A stretch of DNA of 64,000 nucleotides from a phage. The stretch is taken from sequence record NC_129898.1. One strand, 5' to 3'. The translations under genes and the position numbers were made by a program. The notes under the pieces were generated by a model that worked only from the letters and a program-made list of their open reading frames with translations, made no database searches and was not told where the DNA came from. This document shows, piece after piece, positions 8,035 to 43,635 of the stretch; position 1 is the first letter of the stretch; each line of letters starts with the position of its first letter.

Positions 8035-8148
8035 TAGAAGGCCCCCTCTAATTTCACGCACCATTTTAAATACATACTCTTTTCCCATGAAGATGCTAAA
8101 CTAAGGTCTGTATAGAATGCAATCTCCCTAAGAACAGCATAAACAGTT

Positions 8149-29702: not shown

Positions 29703-29996
29703 TCAAGACTTTTTAGTCTTCCTTGGAGAGCTTTTTGTTGATCTTTTCCGTTTGTGGTAGATTCCAAGTGCAGCGTTTTCTTGTGCGCACGTTTTAACAG
29801 TTCTCAGACAAGAACTTTCAGCTTTAGGCAGGTTTAACTCCCACCAACCAAGCCAGTAAAGTTCTGATTCAGACAACTGCTCAGATTCAGCCTTCCGATA
29901 CAATGATTGCATACCTCTAATAATGTCGTCCAGAGGCGTATCGAATACAAAAGCTGTCTTATCAAATTTCTCTTTTACAGGTTTCTTAGCCATCAA
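29703..29996 (-). CDS. hypothetical basic protein
   Basis: 97-aa ORF, Lys/Arg-rich C-terminus. Confidence 0.45.
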   Translation of the reverse strand: MMAKKPVKEKFDKTAFVFDTPLDDIIRGMQSLYRKAESEQLSESELYWLGWWELNLPKAESSCLRTVKTCAQENAALGIYHKRKRSTKSSPRKTKKS

Positions 29997-30459: not shown

Positions 30460-30666
30460 TCATTCAAAGAAATGGGTGCGAGGGCAGGAACCTGCCTCAC
30501 CTTGCTTCACAAGCTCATATAGCTCACCTTGGCTTGTCTCATAAAGGCAAATACGTTTACCATTGTCCCGATATACATCTACAAGGTACGCTGTCTCACC
30601 TGCAAACACGACACCACAGGCAAGGCATGCAGCCATGAACAAAATTGCCAACAGAAAATCTTTCAT
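30460..30666 (-). CDS. small secreted / lipoprotein-like protein next to endolysin
   Basis: 68 aa; signal peptide MKDFLLAILFMAACLACG with lipobox-like LAC. Confidence 0.45.
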   Translation of the reverse strand: MKDFLLAILFMAACLACGVVFAGETAYLVDVYRDNGKRICLYETSQGELYELVKQGEAGSCPRTHFFE

Positions 30667-30729
30667 AGTTAAATCCTCCTTAACATTCTATGAGGTAACA
30701 ATACCACGTCCGTGTGGTCATGTCAATGA

Positions 30730-31200
30730 TTAATCTAGGACAACACCGCCTGACTTTTTAAACACCTCGATCAACTTTTCGATCTTCTGTTCGTGCTGAC
30801 CGTACCCTGCACCTGGAAGGCTTGCCCATCGAGATCTGCAAAGATGGATGGCCTGGTGAATACGACCTTCATCAATATCATCGAGCGCCTTACACTCACG
30901 GATCAGTTGCAACGCAATCTTGTCCTGACTGGCAGGGCCAAAATCTGGTAATCCTAACTGTTTCATATAGTGTTTAGCAAACTTCTCCAGAATCTGGTAA
31001 CGCCCAGCAGCAGAGGAGGTAAGTTTAGCATTTAGCTTAACGTAAACACCTGGATGCTTACTGTAATCGCTAAACAGCTTGCCCCCGACTATGACATCGT
31101 AGCCCCGATCCTTGGTAGGTTGTCTACCATTATCTGTACCTTCTGAATATGCGATCATATCCAAGAAAGCTTTTCGTTGAACATTTTTATCAAGTTTCAT
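30730..31200 (-). CDS. endolysin, lambda R-like lytic transglycosylase family
   Basis: AYSEGTD...YDVIVGG...SAAGRYQIL motifs typical of lambda-lysozyme-like enzymes. Confidence 0.75.
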   Translation of the reverse strand: MKLDKNVQRKAFLDMIAYSEGTDNGRQPTKDRGYDVIVGGKLFSDYSKHPGVYVKLNAKLTSSAAGRYQILEKFAKHYMKQLGLPDFGPASQDKIALQLIRECKALDDIDEGRIHQAIHLCRSRWASLPGAGYGQHEQKIEKLIEVFKKSGGVVLD

Positions 31201-31341
31201 TTTTCATACTCTCCAGTTCACTCATAACGAGCCCTGATCAGCACGTGGCTAGGTTGCACAGTGCATACATCAGGGCATATGTAGGTGCCAATTGAAAACA
31301 CTCATTCAATTGGCTACCGTTATCTACTAAACATACCTACA

Positions 31342-32625
31342 CTATTCCAGAACATCCCAAGTGTCTGGATTAACATTTCGGACGCAGATACCGACAGGGA
31401 ATTGGTAGTTGTTGTCTTCTGTCCTTGCTTGATATTTAAAGGTGACAAACTTGCCGATCATTTCCTGCATCCTGCTATAGCTACGCTCCTCGTGCGTGCC
31501 TTTCATCTTCATTTTAACAACGATGCCTTCCTTGTCAACGCAGATAAGAACACCCTCATCATTCTTATCTTTCTCAACGTCAATAACTTTCACCTCTGCG
31601 TCGTTGAACTTTTTCCATTTCAATGCTTCAGATGTTCGCTGACCGTATTCGTATTTACCACAGAAGTTACGCATGATAGTACCTTCATACCCTTCGGACA
31701 TGAATACACCAACAGATTCTTCGCAATGATCAACTGTGTACGCAATCTCTGCGTCAACAACCTTGATATGGTCAAGCATCAGAGTGGTAATGGTATCTTC
31801 TGCATCCATAAGATCCTTGCAGCGTCCAGACTCTGTTTCTGGATCCCACCACACCTTGTCACTAGGGATATCAAAAATGTGATACTCTAAGTCATAGCTA
31901 CAGTACCCTCCGTAACGCAAATCATCACGAACAGGCTCAACATCAACAGGAATATCTACCTTATTGAAGTTTTTGTATGTTGATAAGCCTGCCTTAATTG
32001 CGGCATGACGGCGTTTTTTATCTGCCTCGTAGTCTTTATCGATCTCGGCCTGAATCTCTTCCTGTGTGCGCCACCGTTTAGCAAGAGACACTATTTTCTG
32101 CAGAGGCAGACCATGAATATAGATCTCTCCGTCGAGCTGTTTAATCCCGGTGGTGAAGTGGAAAGAACGAAGTTGCTCCAGAAGCTTTCCTTGAATAGGG
32201 TAGGACTTATTACCACGGGAAATAAATTTAGGCTCCCCATTTTGGAAAACAACAAGTAGACGAAGGCCATCTAACTTACGCAAGATCCAGCAAGGTAATT
32301 TAAGTGCCTTTCCACGCTTCAGGTAGTCATGCACCAGCATGGGTAAAAGGTCAACGCCCTGCTCGCAATCTTCCATATTTTCAACATACCCCAGACGGAC
32401 TTGTTTTTCCCACTTACTGATCGCTTCCAGCTCAGCCTGTTGCTCAGCTGTAGTTTCATTGGCACGACCAACGTTCTTAGGTGTGCAGATCGTCTCTTTG
32501 TATTGCAGTTTACCGTCAAGCTTGCCAAACTCTACGATAACCTTATCACCATCCGTGAATACTTTCCACTGTTGGTAGCTGCCATCTTTGTTCAGTGCGT
32601 ACAGTGTTGTTTTGATCTGATGCAT
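31342..32625 (-). CDS. ATP-dependent DNA ligase
   Basis: Motif I RKLDGLR (KxDGxR), motif IV EGTIMRN, motif V ALKWKKF; 427 aa. Confidence 0.7.
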   Translation of the reverse strand: MHQIKTTLYALNKDGSYQQWKVFTDGDKVIVEFGKLDGKLQYKETICTPKNVGRANETTAEQQAELEAISKWEKQVRLGYVENMEDCEQGVDLLPMLVHDYLKRGKALKLPCWILRKLDGLRLLVVFQNGEPKFISRGNKSYPIQGKLLEQLRSFHFTTGIKQLDGEIYIHGLPLQKIVSLAKRWRTQEEIQAEIDKDYEADKKRRHAAIKAGLSTYKNFNKVDIPVDVEPVRDDLRYGGYCSYDLEYHIFDIPSDKVWWDPETESGRCKDLMDAEDTITTLMLDHIKVVDAEIAYTVDHCEESVGVFMSEGYEGTIMRNFCGKYEYGQRTSEALKWKKFNDAEVKVIDVEKDKNDEGVLICVDKEGIVVKMKMKGTHEERSYSRMQEMIGKFVTFKYQARTEDNNYQFPVGICVRNVNPDTWDVLE

Positions 32626-32894
32626 TACTCAGCCTCTTCCTTAAAAATTTTAAACATCTCTTCTTTGCTCATTACCAACCAGTCTCCCATAAAGTCAACT
32701 AACCAATCCCCTTGGTACAAGACAAGGTTACCAAACGGCTCGACAAGCTCGCACATGCGAAGAATATCTCTGGTTCGAACAGGTGACGATGTAAACACAC
32801 CTGTATCAATCCACCGTTGCAGATCAGATACTGATGAAGAGCTTCCGTCAAACTGGTGTGCCTCTACAGGTTTAGCAAGATTAAATAACGGCAT
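32625..32894 (-). CDS. hypothetical protein
   Basis: 89-aa ORF. Confidence 0.45.
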   Translation of the reverse strand: MPLFNLAKPVEAHQFDGSSSSVSDLQRWIDTGVFTSSPVRTRDILRMCELVEPFGNLVLYQGDWLVDFMGDWLVMSKEEMFKIFKEEAE

Positions 32895-33189
32895 TGCAGT
32901 CCTCCTTCTCTAATAGGTCTTTTATCGGGTAAACAAGCAGGTGCGGATCGTAATAACTTATAGTCTTATTCTGCCACACTATGAACTTAATTACAACTAA
33001 ATTTACCACATCTTTATCCCCATGTAGTCCAACACACAAATTTGTCCATATTTTGTGGTTGAATACTTTGCTGTCGATGTAGATCTTAGTGTCAAACTTA
33101 TCCTCTATCCTACCTATAAGTTTAACCAATTCTTTCATCTGATCACCAAACACAGCATCGTTTTCAAGATCTCTGGAGTGCTTGTACAT
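32881..33189 (-). CDS. hypothetical protein
   Basis: 102-aa ORF. Confidence 0.45.
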   Translation of the reverse strand: MYKHSRDLENDAVFGDQMKELVKLIGRIEDKFDTKIYIDSKVFNHKIWTNLCVGLHGDKDVVNLVVIKFIVWQNKTISYYDPHLLVYPIKDLLEKEDCNAVI

Positions 33190-33228
33190 AACTTTCTACC
33201 TCACTTGCATACTTTCCGAAACAAGTAA

Positions 33229-33247
33229 AGCCGGGATCGCCCCGGCT
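33229..33247 (-). terminator. terminator-like hairpin
   Basis: AGCCGGG-ATCGC-CCCGGCT 3' of 33254..33967; weak U-tract. Confidence 0.35.
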
Positions 33248-33253
33248 ATGTTA

Positions 33254-33967
33254 TTAAATATATTCTGTTACATCCTTGAAGCTCGAAGGCTTCATAATCT
33301 TACCTTTACTGTCGAGGAATATGATAACTTTATTTCCGTTGTAGAATTCTTCTTTAGCAACAAAACCTTCATAGCGACCATCAAAGCGTCGCTCAAGATC
33401 TTTAATCTCCAACTCGATGAGTTGTTCAGCAGGCATATCTGCACTGGCACCGTGTGAATACCGCAGATGGTTGACGCGTGCAAACTTGCTGTCATTAGAT
33501 TTTAGAACCTTCCGCATCATCCCGCACACATCACCGCGAAGCTGGAACAGCAAAGCTGTTGACAACTCTGCTAAGCGGTAAGCAGACGCTCTTTGCTTAG
33601 AGGTATTTTTCGCAGCGATCAGTGTATCATAAAATTCACCGATCTTAAACTTAAGACCTCGCGGATTATCAAACAGGTTTGACCACTTTTCATGGTTATC
33701 GTTAACAAGATAAGCGGCATAACTTGTGACAACGTGAAGATCGCAGGCCTCTTTTAGGAGATGATCCCCACCATCACCTTTCTCCAACTCTTCCAAAACT
33801 TCATTGAACTCTTCCTCAATGAAACTCAGCTGAAGTTCGAATGGTGTGTATGATTTTTTCACTTTAGCTGCTACACGGTTCCAATTTTCCACCCAGTTGG
33901 CAGACCAAAGGTAGTTTTCAGGCTGAGACAGTTTTTCCAGGTTGTCGATCAGTTTAGTATTCAGCAT
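33254..33967 (-). CDS. MazG-like nucleotide pyrophosphohydrolase candidate
   Basis: IEEEFNEVLEELEK...KEACDL resembles the MazG/HisE EExxE helix; 237 aa; assignment tentative. Confidence 0.4.
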   Translation of the reverse strand: MLNTKLIDNLEKLSQPENYLWSANWVENWNRVAAKVKKSYTPFELQLSFIEEEFNEVLEELEKGDGGDHLLKEACDLHVVTSYAAYLVNDNHEKWSNLFDNPRGLKFKIGEFYDTLIAAKNTSKQRASAYRLAELSTALLFQLRGDVCGMMRKVLKSNDSKFARVNHLRYSHGASADMPAEQLIELEIKDLERRFDGRYEGFVAKEEFYNGNKVIIFLDSKGKIMKPSSFKDVTEYI

Positions 33968-33981
33968 TAAAAGGCCTCCGC

Positions 33982-34743
33982 TTACAGTTCCATAAAGTTT
34001 TCTACGATGTCAATGAATGTTTTATCAGAGAAAGCGTCAACCGCCCCGTTAAACCAAACTGGGATGCCGCGATCCTCATACTGGTAAATGTCACTACGTG
34101 AAATGCCATTCTCCCCTAAATGCTGTGAGTCGTATTTGTTAACGATCAGTAGTTTAGTCCCCTTATTACAGGCAGGGAATAGCTCCCAGTTAAAATTGAT
34201 AACTGTGTTGGAGCACCCTACAAGGATAACCATATCATTGCTCGTCAGAGAAGTCAACAGGTCATACATGTCTACATACTTTGGAGCTACTTCTCCGAAG
34301 AACACTACATTAGGCTTGACCCAAGTATACTCGCTTGCATCTACCTCAGAGTATCCAATGTCTTTAATGACGTCATTCCCTTCATCATCCTCGTAGACTA
34401 TTTCTGGCAAATATCCGTGGACATGTAAAATATCTTCATGTTTTACACCAGCACGCTCCAGCAAATCATCTACATTGGTGGTCAGGTTGATCACACGACC
34501 AGACCAGCGGGAATACCATTCAGCTATCCGGAGATGTGCAAGGTTAGGATCAACACTGCCCAGAGCTACACGCCGTGCATTATAAAAGTCATGCACCTTA
34601 TAGTAGTTCTTGGCAAAGGTGTGGATGTTACACACCTCATCGATGCTGAAATTCTCCCACATTGCAGTGCCACCAGATCGGAAAGTTGGGATACCAGATT
34701 CAGCGCTCAAACCAGCACCGGAGATAATGATCAGTCGTCGCAT
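33982..34743 (-). CDS. Sir2-family (sirtuin-like) NAD-binding protein lacking zinc-ribbon cysteines
   Basis: GAGLSAESGIPTFR, PNLAHxxIA, TTNVDDL and HG motifs in canonical order; no CxxC...CxxC after the HG. Confidence 0.7.
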   Translation of the reverse strand: MRRLIIISGAGLSAESGIPTFRSGGTAMWENFSIDEVCNIHTFAKNYYKVHDFYNARRVALGSVDPNLAHLRIAEWYSRWSGRVINLTTNVDDLLERAGVKHEDILHVHGYLPEIVYEDDEGNDVIKDIGYSEVDASEYTWVKPNVVFFGEVAPKYVDMYDLLTSLTSNDMVILVGCSNTVINFNWELFPACNKGTKLLIVNKYDSQHLGENGISRSDIYQYEDRGIPVWFNGAVDAFSDKTFIDIVENFMEL

Positions 34744-34751
34744 AAGTGTCC

Positions 34752-35102
34752 TCAGTAGATGTTTTGTTTAATTTCTATTCCAAACTTTTTAAACGAGTCA
34801 GCAGCAAGCATGAATTTACGAGCCGCTGATGGGTTAGAAGTATGCACGAAAATCTTCACGTTGTCAACTACAGGAGGCTTACCAAATACAAATTTTTCCT
34901 CCAGTATGCAGAAGCAATCGTATCCTTCAAAAATTTCTCCCAAGTCGCTGTCAAAATGCCACTCAGAAACGCGTCTATATAGCTTTCCCTTGTCATTAAT
35001 GAAATCCATGAACTCAGAAGAACTCTTTAGCCAAAGAGCGTCTGGGAGCCCATAATTTGACGGATCTCTCAAATCATCTAGCCACACAATCAGCTTCTTC
35101 AT
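34752..35102 (-). CDS. hypothetical protein
   Basis: 116-aa ORF. Confidence 0.45.
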   Translation of the reverse strand: MKKLIVWLDDLRDPSNYGLPDALWLKSSSEFMDFINDKGKLYRRVSEWHFDSDLGEIFEGYDCFCILEEKFVFGKPPVVDNVKIFVHTSNPSAARKFMLAADSFKKFGIEIKQNIY

Positions 35103-36034
35103 TGCATATAGTCCTCGTTGTGGAAATAGCAGTCAAGTATCTCACGGCGTTCCTGCTCCAGGAGGCAATTCCACACATCTTCTGTGTAGTTTCTACGAAT
35201 GAAGTTTACCATGCCGTAAAACTCTTCGTCAACACGTTTAAAGATATCATCATCCCAAATCTTCCAAGCTCTACCCCTCATTACGACCTTCCGTGCCAGA
35301 TAGTAGGGAGACTTGATCTTTAGTTGCAGGTCATAAGGGTAGTAAGGCTTACGGATCATATACCCTTCGCCCCTTGTTTCTGCAGCCAACTCTTTTGCAT
35401 AGCTGAACGGAATTTCACGCACAGTGTGAGGACGTTTTGCACCAAGGTATTTGGCAATACCGTCTAAAGCTGCTTCTGGTAGCATTATTCCAGAATCATT
35501 GTATCGGCAACCGATCAAATAGGCACCATGATCTTCCTGAACAATATGCGGGTCTGAAGGGTGACAAATTTCAAACATGAATGTCATGTTTTCATGGCCC
35601 ATAACCTTCTTGATAAGATCTAAATTACCACATTGCTCCTGGATTGTTTCCTTTGCGAGGTTACAATATGGAGAATCAAGAGACCCTGTTGTTGAGAACA
35701 ACAGTTCACCTTTGTGAGATGATACCACACCAAGGAATCCGTTCTTTTTCTCTACCGCCGTCACAAGTTTATTGTCAGGCAGGTTGGTGGAATTTTCTCC
35801 CAAGTTAAACACTTTTGTGAAGGGCCATGCCACAACATTTCCTTCATTACCGACAACAATTCCTCGGCACTCTAGTAAACGCGGAGACAAATGCCATAGA
35901 TTGTTGTAAAATACTTTTCTGGCATATTTATAGATCTTTAACCCAAGATCTGGATAATACCGACTGGTTACAAGACCTTTATTCACTAAATCATCTGCAT
36001 TAAAATACTTCATCATACATTCCTCGTTTGTCAT
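35099..36034 (-). CDS. ligase-family nucleotidyltransferase, probable RNA ligase
   Basis: Motif I VEKKNGF (KxNG, no Arg at +5), motif IV EGYMIRK, motif V LKIKSP; 311 aa; a separate DNA ligase exists at 31342..32625. Confidence 0.55.
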   Translation of the reverse strand: MTNEECMMKYFNADDLVNKGLVTSRYYPDLGLKIYKYARKVFYNNLWHLSPRLLECRGIVVGNEGNVVAWPFTKVFNLGENSTNLPDNKLVTAVEKKNGFLGVVSSHKGELLFSTTGSLDSPYCNLAKETIQEQCGNLDLIKKVMGHENMTFMFEICHPSDPHIVQEDHGAYLIGCRYNDSGIMLPEAALDGIAKYLGAKRPHTVREIPFSYAKELAAETRGEGYMIRKPYYPYDLQLKIKSPYYLARKVVMRGRAWKIWDDDIFKRVDEEFYGMVNFIRRNYTEDVWNCLLEQERREILDCYFHNEDYMQ

Positions 36035-36077
36035 TTTGTCACTCTATCTTGCCACACAAATAAACTAGTGTCAACAC

Positions 36078-36106
36078 TTGAAATGAACAAAAGAGTTATG
36101 TATACT
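36078..36106 (+). promoter_or_regulatory. sigma70-like promoter for the plus-strand kinase operon
   Basis: TTGAAA (36078-36083), 17-nt spacer, TATACT (36101-36106); RBS GGAGG before ATG 36135. Confidence 0.55.
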
Positions 36107-36134
36107 ACCATTAAAATTAAAACGGAGGATTACT

Positions 36135-36545
36135 ATGTCTAAAATGCTATATATCGTGCGTGGTCTACCAGGTTCTGGCAAATCAACACTGGCAAATGCA
36201 CTATCTTTAGAGGGGCTGTACCCACATTTTGAGAACGACATGTTCTGGTACGACGACGATGGAAATTACAACTGGGATGCAAGTAAAGTAACACTTGCAG
36301 CAAAATGGTGCAAAGATAACGTAGAAGATATGATGCGTATGGGATACGACCGTGTCGTGGTAAGTAATACGTTTACAAAAGAAAAACATGTGCAAGAATA
36401 TGTTGACATGGCAATCAGTCATGGGTATAGTTATACTGTGATCGTGGTTGAAAACCGCCACGGTAATAAGAGCATTCATGATGTTCCAGATAGGGTTGTG
36501 GACCGTATGGAGCGTGAGCTTAAAAACTGCATTAAACTAAAATGA
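36135..36545 (+). CDS. P-loop kinase (polynucleotide-kinase-like)
   Basis: Walker A GLPGSGKST near the N-terminus; 136 aa; operonic with a metallophosphoesterase. Confidence 0.6.
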   Translation: MSKMLYIVRGLPGSGKSTLANALSLEGLYPHFENDMFWYDDDGNYNWDASKVTLAAKWCKDNVEDMMRMGYDRVVVSNTFTKEKHVQEYVDMAISHGYSYTVIVVENRHGNKSIHDVPDRVVDRMERELKNCIKLK

Positions 36546-36552
36546 GGGATGT

Positions 36553-37107
36553 ATGAAATATTTTGTAACAAGCGATACACACTTTCTCCACCAGCGAGTC
36601 ATGGAGTTTGATTCATGTCAAAAACACAGATCTCAGTATGATCACAATCTTGACAGTATGAACGAAGGAATCATTGCAGAGTGGAACTCTGTTGTATCAC
36701 CAGAAGACACTGTGTTTCACTTGGGCGATATTGCATGCACTAAGGATAAGAATATCAACAACTTATTTCCAGATATTCTAAATATGTTGAACGGACATAT
36801 TATTCTTGTTCGTGGTAACCATGACACAAGGACGACTGTCAGAATTATGAAAGAGTTCGGTAATGAGGTTGTAGATTATTACGAGCTTCGCCACAACAAG
36901 AATTTGATCTGTATGAGCCATTACCAGTTTGCAAAGTGGAACAGAAAGCCTCACGGATCAGTCCAACTGTTCGGTCATGCTCACGGAACCACACAGCAGT
37001 TGTTTGGCAGGCAGTTTGATGTCGGTTGGGATGTGTGGGGGAGACTCTTACCATTAGAAGAGGCATACCGTATTGCAATGAGTCTTGCTATTGACAGCGG
37101 GGAGTAA
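36553..37107 (+). CDS. calcineurin-like metallophosphoesterase
   Basis: SDTHF (DxH), LGDI (GD), GNHD, GHAHG motifs in order. Confidence 0.75.
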   Translation: MKYFVTSDTHFLHQRVMEFDSCQKHRSQYDHNLDSMNEGIIAEWNSVVSPEDTVFHLGDIACTKDKNINNLFPDILNMLNGHIILVRGNHDTRTTVRIMKEFGNEVVDYYELRHNKNLICMSHYQFAKWNRKPHGSVQLFGHAHGTTQQLFGRQFDVGWDVWGRLLPLEEAYRIAMSLAIDSGE

Positions 37108-37154
37108 TCCCTGCTATTTTAAAGAAAATTGCCACACAAGGAGAATCAGGAGAT

Positions 37155-37505
37155 ATGAAAGAGGAGGATAAGCTGCCATACCTTAAAGTCCCATTTGGAA
37201 TACTGTCTATGTCAAAAGTTTTGAATGATACAACTGGAGAGGTTGTTGTTCTTGACTTGTATGACAAGATCGTATACTGCTACCTGCACAACTGGTATAA
37301 GCTTGGAGGAAATTCACGCTTCACACCCAGCACAAGGAAAATTGCAGCAGATGTTGGGATAAAGAAAACAAAAGCAGCAGCGTGCGTTAAAACTTTAGAA
37401 TGTGCAGGAGTGGTTGAAATATCCACACAAGGGAGAGGTAAAAGATGCACATTTTCCAAAGTTTTGCCACCAGAAGAGGTTATTCGAATGTCAACAACTG
37501 GTTAG
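37155..37505 (+). CDS. helix-turn-helix DNA-binding protein candidate
   Basis: STRKIAADVGIKKTKAAACVKTLECAGVVE HTH-like segment; 116 aa; immediately upstream of the palindrome array. Confidence 0.45.
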   Translation: MKEEDKLPYLKVPFGILSMSKVLNDTTGEVVVLDLYDKIVYCYLHNWYKLGGNSRFTPSTRKIAADVGIKKTKAAACVKTLECAGVVEISTQGRGKRCTFSKVLPPEEVIRMSTTG

Positions 37506-37580
37506 ACCAGTAAAAACTTAAATATCTGTACTATAAGGATTCGTATGTTTTATGTCCATCCAAGAGCAGAGGGTAGTAAC

Positions 37581-37661
37581 TGTCCGTGATACGGACACTA
37601 CTGTCCGTCACGCGGACACATCTGCCCGTAATACGGACACTAACTGTCCGCAATACGGACA
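37581..37661. repeat. array of four 17-bp palindromic operator-like sites at ~21-bp pitch
   Basis: TGTCCGTGATACGGACA (37581-37597), TGTCCGTCACGCGGACA (37602-37618), TGCCCGTAATACGGACA (37623-37639), TGTCCGCAATACGGACA (37645-37661); half-sites TGTCCGT/ACGGACA. Confidence 0.7.
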
Positions 37662-37800
37662 CATAAAGAATATAACTAAAATAACTAAATAATAAAAAAA
37701 AATAAAAGATCTAGTAATTATGGTACTAAAGTACATATACTTAACTTATGTAGAATATACTAGATCCTAAGTACCATGTTTTAAATTTATTACTTACTAT

Positions 37801-38160
37801 TGGTAGTGTCGGCCCTTCATTGGCACTCGCCTACGAGGGGCGAGATGCCGGGCCTCCATAGTGCACACAATGACAGGAGTGCATACATGCAGGACTGTTA
37901 ACATGTGTGGGAGCGAAGCTATAGCGCAGGCCAAAGGCCGAGCACTAATGTGGACCACCGACGAAAGCTTGCCAGCGCCGTAAGGAGTCGGTTGAGAGCC
38001 TCCCGCGCGAGTTTAGTTAAAGTTTATGTGTGGAAACGGACAGGAAGGCCCCTAAATCGCCACACAGCTGCGTAAACTATACCAAGTAAGGCAATCGCAC
38101 CAGTTTGATAGAAAAGCTCGTTACAAAGCGATACAGTGAGTTTTTCTATAACTTGAAGAG
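37801..38160 (+). ncRNA. GC-rich ORF-free structured block (candidate non-coding RNA or leader)
   Basis: No ORF >=60 aa on either strand; nested helix GGCCC/GGGCC, GGCA/TGCC, CTCGCC/GGCGAG at 37811-37854. Confidence 0.25.
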
Positions 38161-38169
38161 GAGGCAGTT

Positions 38170-38748
38170 ATGAGTTCACGCAAAGATGACCGCGAAAAGA
38201 TTGCAAAACGTTATCAGAATGAAGAACAGATGGAGAAAACTTTCAAGTGGAAGCCAGGTTTCCAGCGTAATCATTCTAACGCTCGTGATCGTAAGCATCC
38301 GGATAAGTGGCTAACACCGCCAAATGATGGCATGCAGGTTGGTGATGAGAAGGAGCTATCGCCTGGAAAAGATGGCAACTACATTCGCACTAAGGACGCT
38401 GGTCCAAAGGATGACAGCTATCTTGTAGATAAGGTTCTTGATGGTATTGATGTAGATGTTGACACCACACGGAACTTTTTTCTTGGGTGGTATCGCACAG
38501 GTTTTTTCGACATCAAGGCCATTCGTCGTGTTTGTGATATTAAAAAGTCTGCATATGATGACGACTCGTTACATCGCACCCTGAGGCAATATTCAGAAAG
38601 ATATGGTCATCCGGTTATCACTCTTGACGATGTTGACGAAGTGATGTATCATGCAGAGGTTGTTGCAGGCAGATTTGGTGATGCATATCTTGATATCCTT
38701 TCTGCAAACGATGAGGTAATGTTGAATAAGATTTACTACGAACGTTGA
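38170..38748 (+). CDS. hypothetical protein
   Basis: 192 aa; GAGGAGG RBS upstream. Confidence 0.55.
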   Translation: MSSRKDDREKIAKRYQNEEQMEKTFKWKPGFQRNHSNARDRKHPDKWLTPPNDGMQVGDEKELSPGKDGNYIRTKDAGPKDDSYLVDKVLDGIDVDVDTTRNFFLGWYRTGFFDIKAIRRVCDIKKSAYDDDSLHRTLRQYSERYGHPVITLDDVDEVMYHAEVVAGRFGDAYLDILSANDEVMLNKIYYER

Positions 38749-38758
38749 GGAGAGCTTA

Positions 38759-38947
38759 ATGAACAATCCGGTAGCAAAGAACTGTAATAAGTTCAACAAG
38801 TCTGCAATTCACACTGACAGGAAAAAGAGCTGGTCACCGGACATTGACGAGGAGCTTGAGAATTACTTTGAAGATCTGGTTACCAATGCAGGTGAGGTTG
38901 CGATTAAAGAATACGCAGACAGGAGGGATAAGGCCGGAATCTGTTGA
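38759..38947 (+). CDS. hypothetical protein
   Basis: 62-aa ORF. Confidence 0.4.
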   Translation: MNNPVAKNCNKFNKSAIHTDRKKSWSPDIDEELENYFEDLVTNAGEVAIKEYADRRDKAGIC

Positions 38948-39023
38948 CAAAAATAATGTTACCTGATAAGATCTGCAATATGATGTGATACAATTTTAAC
39001 TTACGAGGTCTACAGGTAATGCT

Positions 39024-39266
39024 ATGTTTAAGGTTAAGCTCGTTTTCCGTTCCATGAATGAGGATTATTTAGAAGATGAAGGTGAATTTCGTGCACTAGA
39101 TGATGCAATAGATTTTGCCAACGACTTAGCTTGTATGAACACGGGTTATGGGTTGTGTTGTTGGGACGGTGGTATTCAGATCGGTGATAGCAAAATCTTC
39201 TACTTCTACCCTGAGCCGGATAACAAACAAATTAAGTATGTTTTATTTATTTGTGCTTTACAATGA
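39024..39266 (+). CDS. hypothetical protein
   Basis: 80-aa ORF. Confidence 0.45.
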   Translation: MFKVKLVFRSMNEDYLEDEGEFRALDDAIDFANDLACMNTGYGLCCWDGGIQIGDSKIFYFYPEPDNKQIKYVLFICALQ

Positions 39267-39553
39267 GGTTGTTTTCGTGTATCATGATGAATATCCAATT
39301 TAAAGATGAATTTGATGGCTTTATCTCCGGATGCTTTGAAACAGGGTTCGGAGAATGCTGAGTTCCCATTAGAGGGCTTGATAGTGCACCACACTTAAAA
39401 TGGTAGGGGCAGCCAGCACATGACGATGTGACCCCAGCCAACCTGTAATAAGGTCGAGCCAAAGCGCGGTAATGGGTCTCTGGTAACCCACTTGTTGGGT
39501 CTTGTGGTCCAGGACGCTGGGCAAGTCGCAGGGAATACCACCCTGCGGCGAAC

Positions 39554-39599
39554 TTGACAATCAGTATTTGCCGTGATAAAATCCACCTATCACGTGATA
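39554..39599 (+). promoter_or_regulatory. sigma70-like promoter with overlapping 12-bp palindrome
   Basis: TTGACA (39554-39559), 17-nt spacer, TG-n-TAAAAT (39574-39582); perfect palindrome TATCACGTGATA (39588-39599). Confidence 0.55.
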
Positions 39600-39610
39600 A
39601 TGGAGGAAAC

Positions 39611-39949
39611 ATGGCGGATACAACTAAAAAGCGTCGCCGTAGAGGCAGACCTCTGAAAGAGGAGTCCAACGCCATTCAGCTAGAGAAGAACATTCTTGAT
39701 ATGAAGGAATCTTTTATAGCGATGGTTCCAGAAGCTCACAAAGTTTTAAGAGAGCTGATGTTGGATCCGAAAACCAAGCAAAATATTCGTCAAAGCATTG
39801 CAGAGTATGTTCTTGATAAGGCAGACCGAATGCAGGAAGAATATGATGAGATGTTTGGTGAAGAGGAAGAGGTGGTAGTAGAAGAGGCTGAAAAACCAGC
39901 ACCTTTTATGCCATTTACCACAGAAATACAGCCTGTTAGCAATAGCTAA
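39611..39949 (+). CDS. hypothetical protein with Arg-rich DNA-binding N-terminus
   Basis: ATG 39611 with GGAGG RBS; MADTTKKRRRRGRPLK then acidic C-terminus; possible small terminase or regulator. Confidence 0.5.
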   Translation: MADTTKKRRRRGRPLKEESNAIQLEKNILDMKESFIAMVPEAHKVLRELMLDPKTKQNIRQSIAEYVLDKADRMQEEYDEMFGEEEEVVVEEAEKPAPFMPFTTEIQPVSNS

Positions 39950-40045
39950 AATATTTTCTTGACAAACTTTGCTTAACAGTGTAATATTGTAAACATGGTC
40001 TCCCACCTTTTCTGGCGGCTAAGGTGTAAAAGAAAGCCACCCAGT

Positions 40046-40117
40046 GCCCTGTTAGCTTAGTGGATAAAGCAGCGGCCTTCTAAGCCGTTGACACTGGTTC
40101 GAGTCCAGTACGGGGTG
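40046..40117 (+). tRNA. tRNA-Arg (anticodon TCT)
   Basis: Acceptor GCCCTGT/ACGGGGT, D-stem GCTT/AAGC, anticodon loop CTTCTAA, T-loop TTCGAGT, CCA encoded. Confidence 0.8.
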
Positions 40118-40250
40118 CCAAGTTCTTTTTAATGTAGCTTACTTTAGCAGAGTAAATCTTCGGCAAGTGGCGGTAACCACTTTACCGATACCTCATAGTT
40201 AGTGGTGAGAACACTAGCTATTTTAAAAAGAATTTAAATATTAGTATTTA

Positions 40251-40335
40251 GGTGAGTTAATTCCGTAGGGGTAGCGGGGCAGACTGTAAATCTGTTATCA
40301 TTGCGATTCGGGTGGTTCGACTCCATCACTCACCA
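40251..40335 (+). tRNA. tRNA-Tyr (anticodon GTA), long variable arm
   Basis: Acceptor GGTGAGT/ACTCACC, anticodon loop CTGTAAA, T-loop TTCGACT, discriminator A, CCA encoded. Confidence 0.75.
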
Positions 40336-40452
40336 CCAAATTTATATTTTTAAATGCATAAATCATACAGATAATGGCATTGATATTTATCGTCGTTTAT
40401 ACTAGTCACTAACTGCTCGAAAATCAGTGTCATTATCAGTATTGTTTATAAA

Positions 40453-40540
40453 AGAGGGTAGGGAGCAATGGTGCTCAAGCGGTCTTGAAAACCGTCCCGT
40501 TGAGGATGACTCGATGATGGTTCGATTCCATTATCCTCTG
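40453..40540 (+). tRNA. tRNA-Ser (anticodon TGA), long variable arm
   Basis: Acceptor AGAGGGT/ATCCTCT, anticodon stem GCGGT/ACCGT with loop CTTGAAA, T-loop TTCGATT, discriminator G. Confidence 0.7.
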
Positions 40541-40640
40541 CCATATTGTTGACCTTGTAATTAAGCGAAAGCCGGAAGCAGAACCGGATTATCAAATGTT
40601 ACAGTCGTCATCGCCGACTAGCCACATGGTCAACATATTG

Positions 40641-40737
40641 CGCTAGGTAAGCCCTTTGGCAAGGGCGAGGATTTTTAATCCTGAAAATAGACGAGGTAGT
40701 CGTTGAATACATAGATGGTTCGATTCCATCACCTAGC
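40641..40737 (+). tRNA. atypical 97-nt tRNA-like element (anticodon loop TTTTTAA, possibly UUU)
   Basis: Perfect acceptor GCTAGGT/ACCTAGC, D-stem GCCC/GGGC, canonical T-arm GATGG-TTCGATT-CCATC, but ~30-nt variable region with ACGA-GGTAG-TCGT hairpin. Confidence 0.35.
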
Positions 40738-40743
40738 ACCTTT

Positions 40744-40816
40744 TGCTGATGTAGCACAATTGGCAGTGCAATTGATTTGTAATCAATAGGTTGCAGGTTC
40801 AAGTCCTGCCATCAGC
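40744..40816 (+). tRNA. tRNA-Thr (anticodon TGT)
   Basis: Acceptor GCTGATG/CATCAGC, D-stem GCAC/GTGC, anticodon stem ATTGA/TCAAT with loop TTTGTAA, T-loop TTCAAGT. Confidence 0.8.
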
Positions 40817-40820
40817 ACCA

Positions 40821-40892
40821 TGGCCCTGTAGCTGGAAGGTTCAAGCAAGCGACTCATAATCGCCAGACGGTGGTTCAATTCCACCCAGGGCC
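40821..40892 (+). tRNA. tRNA-Met or Ile2 (anticodon CAT), elongator-type
   Basis: Acceptor GGCCCTG/CAGGGCC with paired 1:72, anticodon loop CTCATAA, T-loop TTCAATT. Confidence 0.7.
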
Positions 40893-40907
40893 ACCAAATT
40901 ATAAATA

Positions 40908-40981
40908 CTCCGCGTAGCTCAGCTTGGTAGAGCGCCTGATTTGGGATCAGGAGGTCGAGTGTTCGAATCACTCCGTGGAGA
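40908..40981 (+). tRNA. tRNA-Pro (anticodon TGG)
   Basis: Acceptor CTCCGCG/CGTGGAG (C1:G72), D-arm GCTCAGCTTGGTAGAGC, anticodon stem CCTGA/TCAGG with loop TTTGGGA, T-loop TTCGAAT. Confidence 0.8.
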
Positions 40982-41030
40982 CCACCTTTAGTTATACTTT
41001 AAACATATACACACAAAAGGAACCTTTAAA

Positions 41031-41300
41031 ATGTATACACTTAAAATTGTAGAGCGTGTAAATCCAACCCATACTGTAGATTTTCGTGACGATTTCAATC
41101 CTCTGGCTGTAAATCTTCGAGAGTCATATCATGAACTCAGCTGCGATGCAGTGGTGGTCTTTTTTGAAGACAACTCTGAAGGGGCGGTAGCTTGTGTTGT
41201 TGATAGTGAGCAGAAGTTTTATATTTACAGAGATGTAGATGCATACTTGATGAATGAAAATGCAGTTACTGTTAGAATCATCCACCGAGTGCCTCGATAA
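41031..41300 (+). CDS. hypothetical protein
   Basis: 89-aa ORF with AAAGGAAC RBS-like upstream. Confidence 0.45.
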   Translation: MYTLKIVERVNPTHTVDFRDDFNPLAVNLRESYHELSCDAVVVFFEDNSEGAVACVVDSEQKFYIYRDVDAYLMNENAVTVRIIHRVPR

Positions 41301-41356
41301 GTATTAGTCTCCTTTTAGTTAGTTTCGATCTATTTAGGTTACTCAATTTTAACCCG

Positions 41357-41392
41357 CCCCGTTAGCTGTATAGCTGCGGGGTTTTTTCGTTT
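41357..41392 (+). terminator. intrinsic terminator
   Basis: CCCCG-TT-AGCT-GTAT-AGCT-G-CGGGG hairpin followed by TTTTTTCGTTT. Confidence 0.7.
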
Positions 41393-41405
41393 CTGGAGCC
41401 TTAAA

Positions 41406-41804
41406 ATGATTTCAGTTTTAACATGGCTAGGTAGGTATAGAGGGATCATAAAAGGTTTAGTTTTTGCAGCTGCTCTAGGCACAGCATACCTTGGGGCCGT
41501 GTATTGGTTTAACTCTAAGCTTAACGCTGCTTATCAGGAAGGTGTAACAGCAACAGAGTTGAAGTGGGAGCAGATCCTTGACCAGCAACAAAAGCGAGCC
41601 GACAGGATTAAAATGGGACATGCCGAGGAGGTGAAAAACCTTGAAAAATCCCTTTCTGACTTACAGGATAAGCTGGAGGCAGCTAAGATGGCAGGTAAAG
41701 AAAAGCAGATTATTTACCTCCAGTCACCTGAGGGTAAGAAGTCAACACTCCCTGACCAGCTTATAGATATCTATAACGAGAGCATCAATCAGGAGGGTAG
41801 ATGA
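41406..41804 (+). CDS. i-spanin (Rz-like) candidate
   Basis: N-terminal TM helix GLVFAAALGTAYLGAVYWF followed by a charged coiled-coil periplasmic domain; overlaps the next ORF by 4 nt. Confidence 0.55.
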   Translation: MISVLTWLGRYRGIIKGLVFAAALGTAYLGAVYWFNSKLNAAYQEGVTATELKWEQILDQQQKRADRIKMGHAEEVKNLEKSLSDLQDKLEAAKMAGKEKQIIYLQSPEGKKSTLPDQLIDIYNESINQEGR

Positions 41805-42088
41805 GAGCCACCGTATTATTAGTTGCTTGCTTGCTTCTGTGCGGATGCGCGACAAGTGTCGAAAAAGAATATAAGATTGATCCTCCGGATGTGGGAAGAT
41901 TGATTGTTAAACCGCCCGAAGGTGCTATGAAGCCTCCTGCTAAAGCTATACCTTTAAAGAAAGGTGCGCCTGATGCGGTGAATTCTGGCATTATGAGGGA
42001 TAATAACCTGTCTTGCAGTAATGATAGGGCTAAATTGATCATTTTGCAAGACTATATTAGAACACTGTTTCCAAAGGAGAGAGGTTAA
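41801..42088 (+). CDS. o-spanin (Rz1-like) lipoprotein candidate
   Basis: Signal peptide with Cys-containing lipobox-like LLLCGCAT, proline-rich mature region (DPPDVG, KPPEG, KPPAK). Confidence 0.55.
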   Translation: MRATVLLVACLLLCGCATSVEKEYKIDPPDVGRLIVKPPEGAMKPPAKAIPLKKGAPDAVNSGIMRDNNLSCSNDRAKLIILQDYIRTLFPKERG

Positions 42089-43635
42089 TGTCTAAGATTT
42101 ACGGACCGTGTTCTGAAAAGCAGAAGATGATCCTTGAAAACGATGCAGACATTCTTGTCATTGGTGGTGCGGCTGGTTCAGGTAAGTCGTTCCTCCTGCA
42201 GTTGATGCCGCTTAAAATTATTGATGATCCGCACAGCTCTGTGGTTATGTTCCGAAGAACAACTCCACAGTTGGAAGGTGAGGGTGGGCTATGGCCTAAA
42301 GCAGTAGCTATTTACAGTGATCTGCCTGAAAACATTAAACCAAAGTTCAGAGAGAAGGATCATAAGTTTATTTTTCCACGGTTTGATCCGAGCACTGGCA
42401 AGTGGGACAGGAGCAAAAAAGGGGCCGTTGTAAAATACTGCCACATGGAGTATGTCCAAGATAAGCTTAACCATCAAGGCCTTGAGTACACCATGGTTTG
42501 CTTCGATGAAGGCACGCAATTCGAATGGGAGCAGATAGACTATTTGATGTCTCGTCTGCGATCTCAGTCAAAGTATCCATCAAGAATGGTTATCAGTTGT
42601 AACCCCGACTCAGAACACATGCTTGCCAAACTGGTTAGGTGGTGGTTGGACGATGAAGGGTATCCAGATCCGGAGAAATGTGGTAAGAAAAGATATTTTA
42701 TCCGACGCGACGGTGAGTTTATCTGGGGAGACTCTAAAGAGGAGTTAATAGAGAAATACACCACGGTTAACGGACTGGGTGTGGAGATCAAGCCAAGACC
42801 GTTGTCATTCTCGTTTATAGGTGCAACAATTTTCGATAATCCTGTCTGCTTGAGAGACAACCCAGAATACCTTGCTTTCCTTGAAGGTCTACCAGAGCTT
42901 GAAAAAGCCCAGCTTCTTCATGGCAACTGGTTTGCCAAACCTGAGGGTGCAAACTATTTCCAAAGATCTTTCCTTCGTGATGCCGATAGAGTACCTCTTG
43001 GATCAGTATCTTGCAGGGCATGGGATAAGGCAGGAACCGAGAGAACTTCCGGTAATAAATTTCCTGACTTTACTGCCAGTGTTAAGGTAAGTAAAGATAG
43101 CGACGGTTTTTATTACCTGTCCGGGGATTATTGTCCTGAGAACGTGGATGACGGTAGGTATTCCACAGGTCTGGAAGGTAAGTTCTGTAAAAAGGCTGGG
43201 GAACGAGATGTGATCATCAGGAAACAGGCGCAGTTTGATGGAGATGATTGCATAATCGTATTTTCTGTGGACCCCGGTCAGGCAGGTAAGAGTGAGTTCT
43301 TAACCTCGTCCAGATCCTTGCTCGCCGAAGGGTTCAGGGTTGAAGAAGATCCGATGCCTTCCAACAAATCTAAACTGACAAGGTTCTCACCTTTTGCCAA
43401 TCTTGCCCAACAAGGAATGGTGAGGATTGTAAAATCCAGTTTCCATCCTGACACTCTGGAAGCATTTTTGACTGAACTTGAAAAGTTCAACGGGGAAAGA
43501 TCAACATTTAACAGAAAAGACGACTGGGCCGACTGTGTAGCTTCTGCGATTAATTTCCTGGAGAAAGAGGAGGTAGCGCTGCCTTGTGTTATTCCATCAA
43601 TCTCATCACCTTCTATGTTCAAGCGTTTTATCTAA
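42088..43635 (+). CDS. terL: terminase large subunit
   Basis: Walker A VIGGAAGSGKS and Walker B MVCFDEGTQ in the N-terminal ATPase; 515 aa; heads the structural module. Confidence 0.85.
   Translation: MSKIYGPCSEKQKMILENDADILVIGGAAGSGKSFLLQLMPLKIIDDPHSSVVMFRRTTPQLEGEGGLWPKAVAIYSDLPENIKPKFREKDHKFIFPRFDPSTGKWDRSKKGAVVKYCHMEYVQDKLNHQGLEYTMVCFDEGTQFEWEQIDYLMSRLRSQSKYPSRMVISCNPDSEHMLAKLVRWWLDDEGYPDPEKCGKKRYFIRRDGEFIWGDSKEELIEKYTTVNGLGVEIKPRPLSFSFIGATIFDNPVCLRDNPEYLAFLEGLPELEKAQLLHGNWFAKPEGANYFQRSFLRDADRVPLGSVSCRAWDKAGTERTSGNKFPDFTASVKVSKDSDGFYYLSGDYCPENVDDGRYSTGLEGKFCKKAGERDVIIRKQAQFDGDDCIIVFSVDPGQAGKSEFLTSSRSLLAEGFRVEEDPMPSNKSKLTRFSPFANLAQQGMVRIVKSSFHPDTLEAFLTELEKFNGERSTFNRKDDWADCVASAINFLEKEEVALPCVIPSISSPSMFKRFI

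What the first reader, a model, noticed from the sequence alone, without database searches (positions are those of the whole stretch)
30460..42088. Dispersed lysis genes: endolysin with adjacent lipoprotein-like ORF, spanin pair about 10 kb away, no holin identified
The lambda-R-like endolysin (30730..31200) sits in the minus-strand block next to a 68-aa signal-peptide/lipobox-like ORF (30460..30666). The candidate i-spanin/o-spanin pair (41406..42088) is on the plus strand immediately upstream of the terminase. No holin was recognised; small membrane ORFs such as 776..1039, 8149..8385 or the tiny hydrophobic peptides are candidates.
Basis: partly seen in the sequence, partly recalled or inferred. 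Interest (0 to 1): 0.4.

Follow-up and report, generated by a model that had tools for sequence, protein, structure and literature searches.

The report
Scattered lysis genes of an rV5-like phage
This rV5-like E. coli phage keeps its cell-bursting genes (a lambda-type endolysin and a two-part spanin) about 10 kb apart with no recognisable holin, an arrangement already described in the literature for this phage group, so the finding is correct but ordinary.

Summary
The window is a Vequintavirus (rV5/FV3-like coliphage, 95-98% nt identity). All ORFs named in the finding exist.

- **Endolysin, 30730..31200(-):** a full-length, signal-less homologue of lambda R (PDB 1AM7, E=2e-56). It is 95.5% identical to LysECP26, which has been characterised experimentally.
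- **Spanins, 41406..41804(+) and 41801..42088(+):** a bona fide i-spanin/o-spanin pair. The i-spanin has an N-terminal TMD. The o-spanin has an invariant lipobox Cys16, Ala at +2 and an invariant Cys72. The pair overlaps by ATGA, and the o-spanin overlaps the large terminase gene by TAATG.
- **68-aa ORF, 30460..30666(-):** real and almost invariant, but not a lipoprotein, because its N-terminal cysteines are not conserved. It is a small Sec-secreted beta-domain protein with its own conserved sigma-70 promoter, and nothing links it to lysis.
- **Holin:** no known holin family is present. My context and profile searches neither strengthen nor refute that proposal.

All of this is already in the literature (rV5 2013, Kongari 2018, LL12 2019, CB7 2020). 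Verdict: correct observation, already known, low interest. The missing holin remains an open question that others have already recognised.

The parts
30730..31200 (-). Endolysin: soluble lambda R-type (GH104) peptidoglycan lytic transglycosylase, 156 aa, with no signal or SAR segment
   Evidence: 1AM7 lambda lysozyme E=2.2e-56 over the full length, with the catalytic-Glu motif SEGT conserved. phrog_90 at 5e-55. No hydrophobic segment. An in-frame TGA two codons upstream fixes the start. 95.5% identical to LysECP26, whose muralytic activity was shown experimentally (PMC9728275).
41406..41804 (+). i-spanin (Rz equivalent), 132 aa: basic N-terminus, one TMD at about residues 14-35, 97-aa periplasmic helical domain, no Cys
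   Evidence: phrog_4297 'Rz-like spanin' at 7e-48. Kyte-Doolittle TMD. 3 K/R and 0 D/E before the TMD. The orthologues in rv5/FV3 are curated as SIS family 'rv5' with a coiled coil at residues 53-104.
41801..42088 (+). o-spanin (Rz1 equivalent), 95 aa: lipoprotein signal with lipobox LLCG|C16, Ala at +2, 80-aa Pro-rich mature part with one further Cys (C72)
   Evidence: phrog_1267 at 4e-22. C16, G15, L13 and C72 are invariant in 13 homologues, whereas C10 is not conserved. 9 Pro in 80 residues. The same lipobox and mature length are listed in Kongari Table S1. ATGA overlap with the i-spanin and TAATG overlap with terL.
41356..41388 (+). Intrinsic-terminator-like hairpin plus U6, 18 nt before the i-spanin start
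   Evidence: Fold dG -17.8 kcal/mol, stem 41356-41382 followed by UUUUUU. The simple scanner missed it because of a bulge.
42088..43635 (+). Large terminase subunit (context: translationally coupled to the o-spanin)
   Evidence: Pfam Terminase_6N at 4.6e-20 and Terminase_6C at 2.7e-6. phrog_979 at 1.7e-208.
30460..30666 (-). Small secreted protein (neighbour of the endolysin; not shown to be a lysis gene): signal peptide, then a roughly 46-aa four-stranded beta domain with two invariant Cys (C40, C61)
   Evidence: phrog_4641, function unknown. Alignment shows a conserved signal peptide and A/S-x-A/S|G site, with C14 and C17 not conserved. AF2 pLDDT 82, helix 2-16 plus 4 strands. No informative fold match.
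30698..30726 (-). Sigma-70 promoter (TTGACA-17-TATTGT with TG) serving the 68-aa gene
   Evidence: 10 of 12 matches, the only hit in 29900-31500. Conserved in FV3, in metagenomic L011 (TTGACA-17-TATACT) and in SSBI34 (TTGACT-16-TATAAT).
8149..8385 (-). Orthologue of rV5 ORF129, the published putative class II holin: 78 aa, two TMDs, basic C-terminal tail
   Evidence: TMDs at 3-32 and 36-65. phrog_10061, function unknown. Orthology to rV5 94058..94294 'ORF 129'. Proposed as a holin in PMC3606486. TMD2 94% column identity against TMD1 75%.
6868..8088 (-). Three further membrane-protein genes directly downstream of the ORF129 orthologue: 7915..8034 (39 aa, 1 TMD), 7276..7746 (156 aa, C-terminal TMD, 'virion structural protein') and 6868..7215 (115 aa, N-terminal TMD plus a periplasmic domain with 2 Cys)
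   Evidence: TM scan. PHROGs 15251, 7821 and 11867. The cluster and its topology are conserved in the diverged relatives L013 and L016.
776..1039 (-).
   Evidence: TM scan. phrog_13956, function unknown. No Pfam hit.

Best explanation
This is the lysis equipment of an rV5-like myophage, arranged in the dispersed, T4-like way that is already documented for this group.

A soluble lambda R-type lytic transglycosylase (30730..31200, minus strand) accumulates in the cytoplasm. It has no export signal, so it needs a hole-forming holin to reach the murein. This dependence is inferred from established knowledge of lambda R/S105. After the wall is degraded, a 'separated'-type two-component spanin disrupts the outer membrane. 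The i-spanin is anchored in the inner membrane. The o-spanin is lipidated at Cys16, sorted to the outer membrane and dimerised through Cys72.

The spanin genes are translationally coupled to each other and to the large terminase gene, so they are probably made together with the packaging proteins.

The holin gene is not next to either locus and belongs to no known family. The only candidate in the window with classic holin features is the 78-aa two-TMD orthologue of rV5 ORF129 (8149..8385), and it is unproven.

The 68-aa gene beside the endolysin is an independently transcribed small periplasmic protein of unknown function. It is not a lipoprotein and has not been shown to take part in lysis.
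For: Phage identity.

Endolysin. Experimental activity of a 95.5%-identical orthologue.

Spanins: TMD and lipobox; invariant C16 and C72; PHROG hits; curated census entry 'rv5 sep -4, LLCG'; gene overlaps. The CB7 paper states that the rV5/PVP-SE1 spanins lie next to terL outside any lysis cassette.

No holin: no holin PHROG or Pfam hit for any small membrane ORF in the window or in the rest of FV3. The same is stated for LL12 and rV5.

ORF129 orthology and features.

68-aa ORF.
Against: The timing of expression is not established. The T4 late motif TATAAATA is not enriched. The rV5 'late' motif TGGTAnAATA is absent upstream of the endolysin, the spanins, the 68-aa ORF and ORF129.

A terminator-like hairpin lies immediately upstream of the i-spanin, so the source of spanin transcription is unclear.

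The endolysin sits in a block of replication and nucleotide-metabolism genes rather than late genes.

ORF129 lies in a block of small genes of unknown function. It is never next to an endolysin, even in remote relatives. Its inter-TMD loop also carries 3 K/R, so the N-in/C-in topology is only mildly favoured.

Pfam gave no hit for the endolysin at E<=0.1, although the PDB and PHROG matches are unambiguous.
Confidence: 0.85

Rival explanations
1. The 68-aa ORF next to the endolysin is a lysis accessory protein (for example a periplasmic antiholin or lysis regulator, or a lysis lipoprotein) that works together with the endolysin.
For: It lies 63 nt downstream of the endolysin. The same adjacency is kept in a diverged 131-kb metagenomic relative whose endolysin is only 65% identical and whose 68-aa homologue is 63% identical. 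It is exported to the compartment where lysis is regulated.
Against: The N-terminal Cys residues are not conserved, so it is not a lipoprotein. It has its own conserved sigma-70 promoter. Homing-endonuclease genes are inserted between it and the endolysin in FV3 and DrSchubert without disturbing that promoter. In Kashira and SSBI34 the homologue keeps its place in the ligase-exonuclease module with no endolysin nearby. No solved structure matches the predicted beta fold at E<0.06.
Confidence: 0.1
2. The holin is not ORF129 but another membrane protein. Candidates are the 115-aa N-anchored protein with a periplasmic domain (6868..7215, which has the topology of T4 holin T or antiholin RI), the 87-aa protein at 776..1039, or a small membrane protein outside this window in the late tail-fibre cluster (FV3_00029 and FV3_00031, a position like that of T4 gene t after gene 38).
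For: Several single-TMD proteins are conserved. FV3 has membrane proteins among its late tail-fibre genes. ORF129 has no link to lysis genes in any relative.
Against: None of these proteins hits a holin family. None has the two-TMD-plus-basic-tail signature that made ORF129 the published candidate. No expression data are available.
Confidence: 0.3
3. Lysis does not depend on a canonical holin. An exported SleB-like cell-wall hydrolase encoded next to rIIA (outside this window) does the work, and the R-type enzyme is auxiliary.
For: FV3 encodes a Hydrolase_2/SleB-like protein with an N-terminal hydrophobic segment followed by Pro, which is possibly an uncleaved signal anchor. In Certrevirus CB7 a two-TMD holin candidate overlaps the SleB-like gene.
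Against: The R-type enzyme is conserved, intact and highly active in vitro. Signal-anchored endolysins still need a pinholin for timing (established knowledge). The SleB-like gene is not in this window and was not analysed further.
Confidence: 0.05
4. The two small genes upstream of terL are packaging proteins (for example a small terminase) rather than spanins.
For: The position immediately upstream of terL is where terS usually lies. There is a weak PHROG hit of the 132-aa protein to 'terminase small subunit' phrog_1206, E=0.0016.
Against: The 132-aa protein has an N-terminal TMD, and the 95-aa protein has an invariant lipobox and Cys72. The spanin PHROG hits are 40 orders of magnitude stronger. 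The pair is manually curated as spanins.
Confidence: 0.02

Closest known systems
Lysis genes of Escherichia phage rV5 / FV3 / LL12 (genus Vequintavirus)
   Same: Gene-for-gene identical arrangement at 93-98% nt identity. The endolysin (rV5 gp89) follows the DNA ligase, with the 68-aa 'putative membrane protein' next to it. [quoted passage not shown] ORF129 is the only two-TMD holin candidate. No holin has been positively identified.
   Different: Only minor differences. This genome has no homing endonuclease between the endolysin and the 68-aa gene (FV3 and DrSchubert do). Its terL is uninterrupted, whereas the genome papers report rV5 and LL12 terL as split. Its ORF129 allele has a TMD1 only about 55% identical to that of most of the genus.
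Phage lambda S-R-Rz/Rz1 lysis cassette
   Same: The endolysin is a true homologue of lambda R (about 63% identity, full length). The overall three-step logic of holin, endolysin and spanin is expected to be the same.
   Different: Lambda has all four genes contiguous under one late promoter, with Rz1 embedded in Rz. Here the endolysin is an orphan with no S-like holin beside it. The spanins are of the 'separated' architecture, unrelated in sequence to Rz/Rz1, and lie 10 kb away on the other strand.
Phage T4 dispersed lysis genes (e, t, rI, pseT.3/pseT.2)
   Same: The lysis genes are scattered around a large myophage genome. The spanin pair has the same 'separated, -4 nt (ATGA)' architecture as pseT.3/pseT.2. 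rIIA and rIIB homologues exist in the genome. The rV5 authors drew the same analogy.
   Different: The endolysin is lambda R-type rather than T4 E-type. There is no homologue of holin T (no Pfam or PHROG hit), and no T4-type late promoter enrichment.
Class II holins (two TMDs, N-in/C-in, for example S21 68)
   Same: The ORF129 orthologue is 78 aa with two TMDs, a short N-terminus and a lysine/arginine-rich C-terminal tail.
   Different: There is no sequence similarity to any holin family, no dual-start motif, and no adjacency to an endolysin in any relative. The expression time is unknown. The partner endolysin has no SAR domain, so a pinholin mechanism would not suffice.

Membership tests
Lambda R-type endolysin (GH104 lytic transglycosylase) | Full-length sequence homology to lambda R | tested here: met
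   1AM7 and 3D3D at E about 2e-56, residues 4-154 aligned to 3-153. 63% identity to lambda R by tblastn.
Lambda R-type endolysin (GH104 lytic transglycosylase) | Catalytic glutamate (lambda E19) in the SEGT motif | tested here: met
   The alignment shows AYSEGTDNGRQ against AWSEGTDNGRQ, with the Glu conserved. The role of E19 comes from established knowledge of lambda lysozyme.
Lambda R-type endolysin (GH104 lytic transglycosylase) | Cytoplasmic protein with no signal or SAR segment (holin-dependent) | tested here: met
   No Kyte-Doolittle segment reaches 1.6. An in-frame stop two codons upstream excludes an N-terminal extension.
Lambda R-type endolysin (GH104 lytic transglycosylase) | Muralytic activity and transglycosylase chemistry | not testable with these tools
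   The 95.5%-identical LysECP26 lyses EDTA-treated Gram-negative cells. Bond specificity has not been determined.
Two-component spanin: i-spanin | N-terminal TMD with N-in/C-out topology and a periplasmic domain | tested here: met
   TMD at about residues 14-35, preceded by 3 K/R and 0 D/E, with a 97-aa C-terminal domain.
Two-component spanin: i-spanin | Helical or coiled-coil periplasmic domain | not tested
   Not computed here. Kongari's tables give 48-54% helix and a coil at residues 53-104 for the rv5 and FV3 orthologues.
Two-component spanin: o-spanin | Lipoprotein signal with a lipobox Cys | tested here: met
   L13-x-G15-C16 is invariant in 13 homologues with 56-92% identity. It matches the PROSITE-type pattern. 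LipoP itself was not available.
Two-component spanin: o-spanin | Outer-membrane sorting (no Asp at +2) | tested here: met
   The +2 residue is Ala here and Ser, Thr or Gly in homologues. The sorting rule comes from established Lol-pathway knowledge.
Two-component spanin: o-spanin | Small Pro-rich mature domain with at least one Cys for a homotypic disulfide | tested here: met
   80-aa mature part with 9 Pro, and Cys72 invariant. The i-spanin has no Cys.
Two-component spanin: gene pair | i- and o-spanin genes adjacent, overlapped or embedded | tested here: met
   ATGA overlap at 41801-41804. Classified as 'sep, -4' in the curated census.
Two-component spanin: gene pair | Required for outer-membrane disruption | not testable with these tools
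   I found no experiment for this spanin family in the papers searched.
Holin (applied to ORF 8149..8385) | Small protein with at least one TMD and a charged C-terminus | tested here: met
   78 aa, two TMDs, and a C-terminal tail with about 6 K/R and 4 D/E on average.
Holin (applied to ORF 8149..8385) | Homology to a described holin family | tested here: not met
   phrog_10061 has unknown function and there is no Pfam hit above noise. A profile search of 1.84 billion representatives found only 6 relatives, all unannotated.
Holin (applied to ORF 8149..8385) | Genetic linkage to an endolysin or spanin in at least some relatives | tested here: not met
   Always found in the PhoH-ClpP ... structural-protein block, and 22 kb from the endolysin here.
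Holin (applied to ORF 8149..8385) | Late expression | tested here: inconclusive
   No promoter motif of either class lies upstream. No transcriptome was available.
Holin (applied to ORF 8149..8385) | Triggerable lethal hole formation that releases the endolysin | not testable with these tools
   Needs lambda S-null complementation or inducible expression.
Bacterial lipoprotein (applied to the 68-aa ORF) | Lipobox [LVI][ASTVI][GAS]C with a conserved Cys | tested here: not met
   No strict lipobox. Cys14 and Cys17 are absent from P0018-P0023, Kashira and SSBI34.
Sec-secreted protein (applied to the 68-aa ORF) | n-h-c signal peptide with a small-x-small cleavage site | tested here: met
   MK- start, a hydrophobic core, then VFA|G, AWS|G or AHA|G/S conserved across homologues. 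The model shows helix 2-16 followed by a separate beta domain. SignalP was not available.
Solved periplasmic lysis-control folds such as T4 RI or Spackle (applied to the 68-aa ORF) | Structural similarity to a solved lysis-control protein | tested here: not met
   Foldseek against the PDB: best E=0.06, generic small beta barrels only. BFVD returned only uncharacterised small phage proteins.

The most novel reading that the evidence does not exclude
The missing holin system of the Vequintavirinae is the conserved four-gene membrane-protein module at 6868..8385(-). In this reading the two-TMD ORF129 protein is a new holin family serving a lambda R-type endolysin. The downstream 115-aa N-anchored protein, with its disulfide-containing periplasmic domain, would act as its antiholin or regulator, analogous to T4 T/RI but unrelated in sequence. 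The ORF129 part of this idea was already proposed in 2013. The module and antiholin part is my extrapolation.
Probability: 0.2. Interest if true: 0.4.

Novelty: already known. Interest (0 to 1): 0.12.

Why it matters
It matters little beyond correct annotation. rV5-like phages are used in biocontrol and therapy cocktails, and their endolysin (LysECP26) is being developed as an enzybiotic, so knowing the full lysis gene set has practical value. The one open point is the unidentified holin. That gap is already stated in the rV5, LL12, CB7 and KPP-1 papers, and it can be tested directly by standard lambda S-null complementation, because the endolysin is a lambda R homologue.

Tried and rejected
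1. T4-type late promoter TATAAATA: 5 hits against 2.7 expected, none near the lysis genes. Not informative.

2. The rV5 'late' motif TGGTAnAATA: found upstream of the portal, head and tail genes only. It is essentially an extended -10 element and does not classify the lysis genes.

3. Guilt by association for ORF129: a profile search of 1.84 billion representatives gave only 6 hits. The remote ones lie in the same PhoH-ClpP block or in an unrelated context, never beside lysis genes.

4. Guilt by association for the 68-aa ORF: mixed. It is adjacent to the R-type endolysin in a diverged metagenomic phage but not in Kashira or SSBI34.

5. Structure and fold search of the 68-aa protein: the model is confident, but there were no informative matches.

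6. Pfam on the endolysin returned nothing at E<=0.1, although the rV5 paper reported pfam00959. I relied on the PDB and PHROG matches instead.

7. Whole-genome scan of FV3 for a holin outside the window: no holin family was found, only further uncharacterised membrane proteins.

8. Rfam on the endolysin region: no hit.

9. The lipoprotein reading of the 68-aa ORF, and Cys10 as the o-spanin lipidation site, were both rejected on conservation.

Full report
**Identity of the window.** Megablast of 30400-43700 against phage genomes gives 110 near-full-length matches. The best are 98% (EPFV3), 97% (FV3) and 94-96% (ECP26, NHEP1, rV5 derivatives), all Vequintavirus myophages of E. coli of about 136 kb. 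GC skew changes sign near 36 kb. Genes to the left are on the minus strand: ligases, the nucleotide-metabolism and replication block, and many small ORFs. Genes to the right are on the plus strand: a few small genes, a tRNA cluster, spanins, terminase, portal, head and tail.

**Observation.** Every ORF in the finding exists at the stated coordinates.

*Endolysin.* The product of 30730..31200(-) is 156 aa. It matches PHROG 'endolysin' at 5e-55 and aligns over its whole length with lambda lysozyme (PDB 1AM7, E=2.2e-56), including the SEGT catalytic motif. tblastn gives about 63% identity to lambda R and 95.5% to LysECP26. LysECP26 is an rV5-like endolysin whose muralytic activity on EDTA-permeabilised cells was shown experimentally. 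The protein has no hydrophobic segment, and an in-frame stop two codons upstream rules out an N-terminal extension. It is therefore a soluble endolysin that, by analogy with lambda R, depends on a holin. Pfam returned nothing for it, which I treat as a quirk of that search.

*Spanins.* 41406..41804 and 41801..42088 match 'Rz-like spanin' PHROGs at 7e-48 and 4e-22.
- The 132-aa protein has a basic N-terminus, one TMD (about residues 14-35) and a 97-residue periplasmic part with no Cys.
- The 95-aa protein has two possible lipobox cysteines. Alignment of 13 homologues down to 56% identity shows that only L13-x-G15-C16 is invariant; Cys10 is not. Cys72 in the mature part is also invariant.
- The +2 residue is Ala, and the mature 80-aa part has 9 prolines.
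- The genes overlap by ATGA, and the o-spanin stop overlaps the terL start (TAATG).

**Already known.**
- Kongari et al. 2018 list rv5, FV3 and JES-2013 as a 'separated, -4 nt' two-component spanin family with lipobox LLCG and an 80-aa mature o-spanin.
- The CB7 paper states that in CB7, rV5 and PVP-SE1 the spanin pair lies next to the large terminase and is not part of a classic lysis cassette.
- The rV5 genome paper names gp89 as the lysin, found no holin homologue, and proposed the only two-TMD protein, the 78-aa gp129 with a basic C-terminus, as a holin separated from the lysin 'as in phage T4'.
- GenBank and RefSeq records carry the same endolysin and spanin annotations. The BASEL annotators, who screened small TM proteins for holins, left this group without one.

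**The 68-aa ORF.** It is a real gene: phrog_4641, and 95-100% aa identity in 119 records. It is not a lipoprotein. There is no strict lipobox, and Cys14 and Cys17 are missing from many homologues. What is conserved is a signal peptide ending in small-x-small|G, plus a mature domain of about 46 aa with invariant Cys40 and Cys61.

AlphaFold models it (pLDDT 82) as a signal helix plus a four-stranded beta domain. Fold searches give nothing informative.

A near-consensus sigma-70 promoter (TTGACA-17-TATTGT with TG) and a strong SD lie directly upstream. Equivalent promoters are present in three relatives:
- FV3, where an HNH gene separates the ORF from the endolysin;
- a diverged metagenomic relative;
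- SSBI34.

Context evidence is mixed. The endolysin-ORF adjacency persists in a 131-kb metagenomic phage whose endolysin is only 65% identical. In Kashira and SSBI34, however, the homologue stays in the ligase-exonuclease module with no endolysin nearby. I conclude it is an autonomous small periplasmic protein of unknown role, and I put a lysis function at about 10%.

**The holin question.** A hydropathy scan of all coding-strand ORFs shows that the membrane proteins are concentrated at 600-8400(-). None hits a holin family in PHROGs or Pfam.

ORF 8149..8385(-) is the orthologue of rV5 ORF129. In the family alignment, TMD2 is 94% conserved, TMD1 75%, and the tail is basic. A profile search of 1.84 billion representative proteins found only six relatives. 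The remote ones lie in the same PhoH-ClpP block and never near lysis genes.

ORF129 heads a run of four membrane-protein genes whose order and topology are conserved in relatives at 32-63% identity: the two-TMD protein, a 39-aa one-TMD protein, a 156-aa tail-anchored protein, and a 115-aa N-anchored protein with two Cys.

Scanning the rest of FV3 found no holin family either. It did find rIIA and rIIB, a SleB-like hydrolase with a hydrophobic N-terminus, and small membrane proteins in the tail-fibre cluster.

Promoter motifs did not resolve timing. A terminator-like hairpin lies just before the i-spanin. The holin therefore remains unidentified. ORF129 is the best candidate in the window, but it is no better supported than it was in 2013.

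**Verdict.** The arrangement is fully documented for this phage genus, so it is already known and of low interest. The only open element is the holin. That gap is recognised in the literature and is best closed by lambda S-null complementation and deletion mutants.

Noticed in passing
window 31201..31341 (-), between the DNA ligase and the endolysin: The 141-nt spacer folds into a very stable structure (dG -48.9 kcal/mol, z=-3.8, 0 of 200 shuffles as stable). The first hairpin (GTAGGT..GCCAATTGA-loop-TCAATTGGCACCTAC) is conserved in FV3, NHEP1 and DrSchubert, while the second hairpin region carries indels. No U-tract follows and there is no Rfam hit. It could be an RNA processing or stability element, or a translational control element for the endolysin.
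   Followed up: partly
window 6868..8385 (-): Four consecutive membrane-protein genes: a 78-aa two-TMD protein, a 39-aa one-TMD protein, a 156-aa C-terminally anchored protein annotated 'virion structural protein', and a 115-aa N-anchored protein with 2 Cys. Their order and topology are conserved in diverged metagenomic relatives (L013, L016) at 32-63% identity. Function unknown.
   Followed up: partly
window 29986..30450 (-); FV3 locus L002 1835..2518; DrSchubert L007 13888..14649: The endolysin/68-aa-gene locus is a hot spot for homing endonucleases. An HNH gene lies directly downstream of the 68-aa gene here, and FV3 and DrSchubert carry an additional HNH or homing endonuclease inserted between the endolysin and the 68-aa gene's promoter.
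   Followed up: no
window 40046..40984 (+): A cluster of six tRNA-like genes lies just upstream of the spanin/terminase block. It includes a 99-nt ARAGORN call with a 4-base anticodon ('tRNA-???', 40642..40740), and a tRNA-Ser(tga) of 91 nt where FV3 and NHEP1 annotate a tRNA-Tyr as the second tRNA of the cluster. Two strong sigma-70-like promoters (39554, 39959) precede the cluster.
   Followed up: no
window 42088..43635 (+): The large terminase gene is a single uninterrupted 515-codon ORF here. The rV5 and LL12 papers describe terL as split by intron or homing-endonuclease insertions.
   Followed up: no
FV3 locus L008 1980..2480 (-), outside the window: A second peptidoglycan hydrolase (SleB-like, Pfam Hydrolase_2 at 2.7e-19) lies next to rIIA. 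Its N-terminal hydrophobic segment is followed by AA-P. A proline at +1 would block signal peptidase I, which suggests a signal-anchor or SAR-type enzyme. In Certrevirus CB7 a two-TMD holin candidate overlaps the equivalent gene.
   Followed up: partly
Literature, PMC9728275: [quoted passage not shown] The near-identical protein in this window is about 63% identical to lambda R over its full length.
   Followed up: yes
window 8149..8385 (-) and alignment A3: The ORF129 family is mosaic. Two clearly different TMD1 alleles (VWYCALTFLTMVVLATLCIISC against IGYLVIAVITAVFLTGVCIVST) are combined with two C-terminal tail alleles in different genomes, while TMD2 is nearly invariant. This window's allele is about 55% identical to that of most of the genus, although the flanking DNA is more than 90% identical.
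   Followed up: partly
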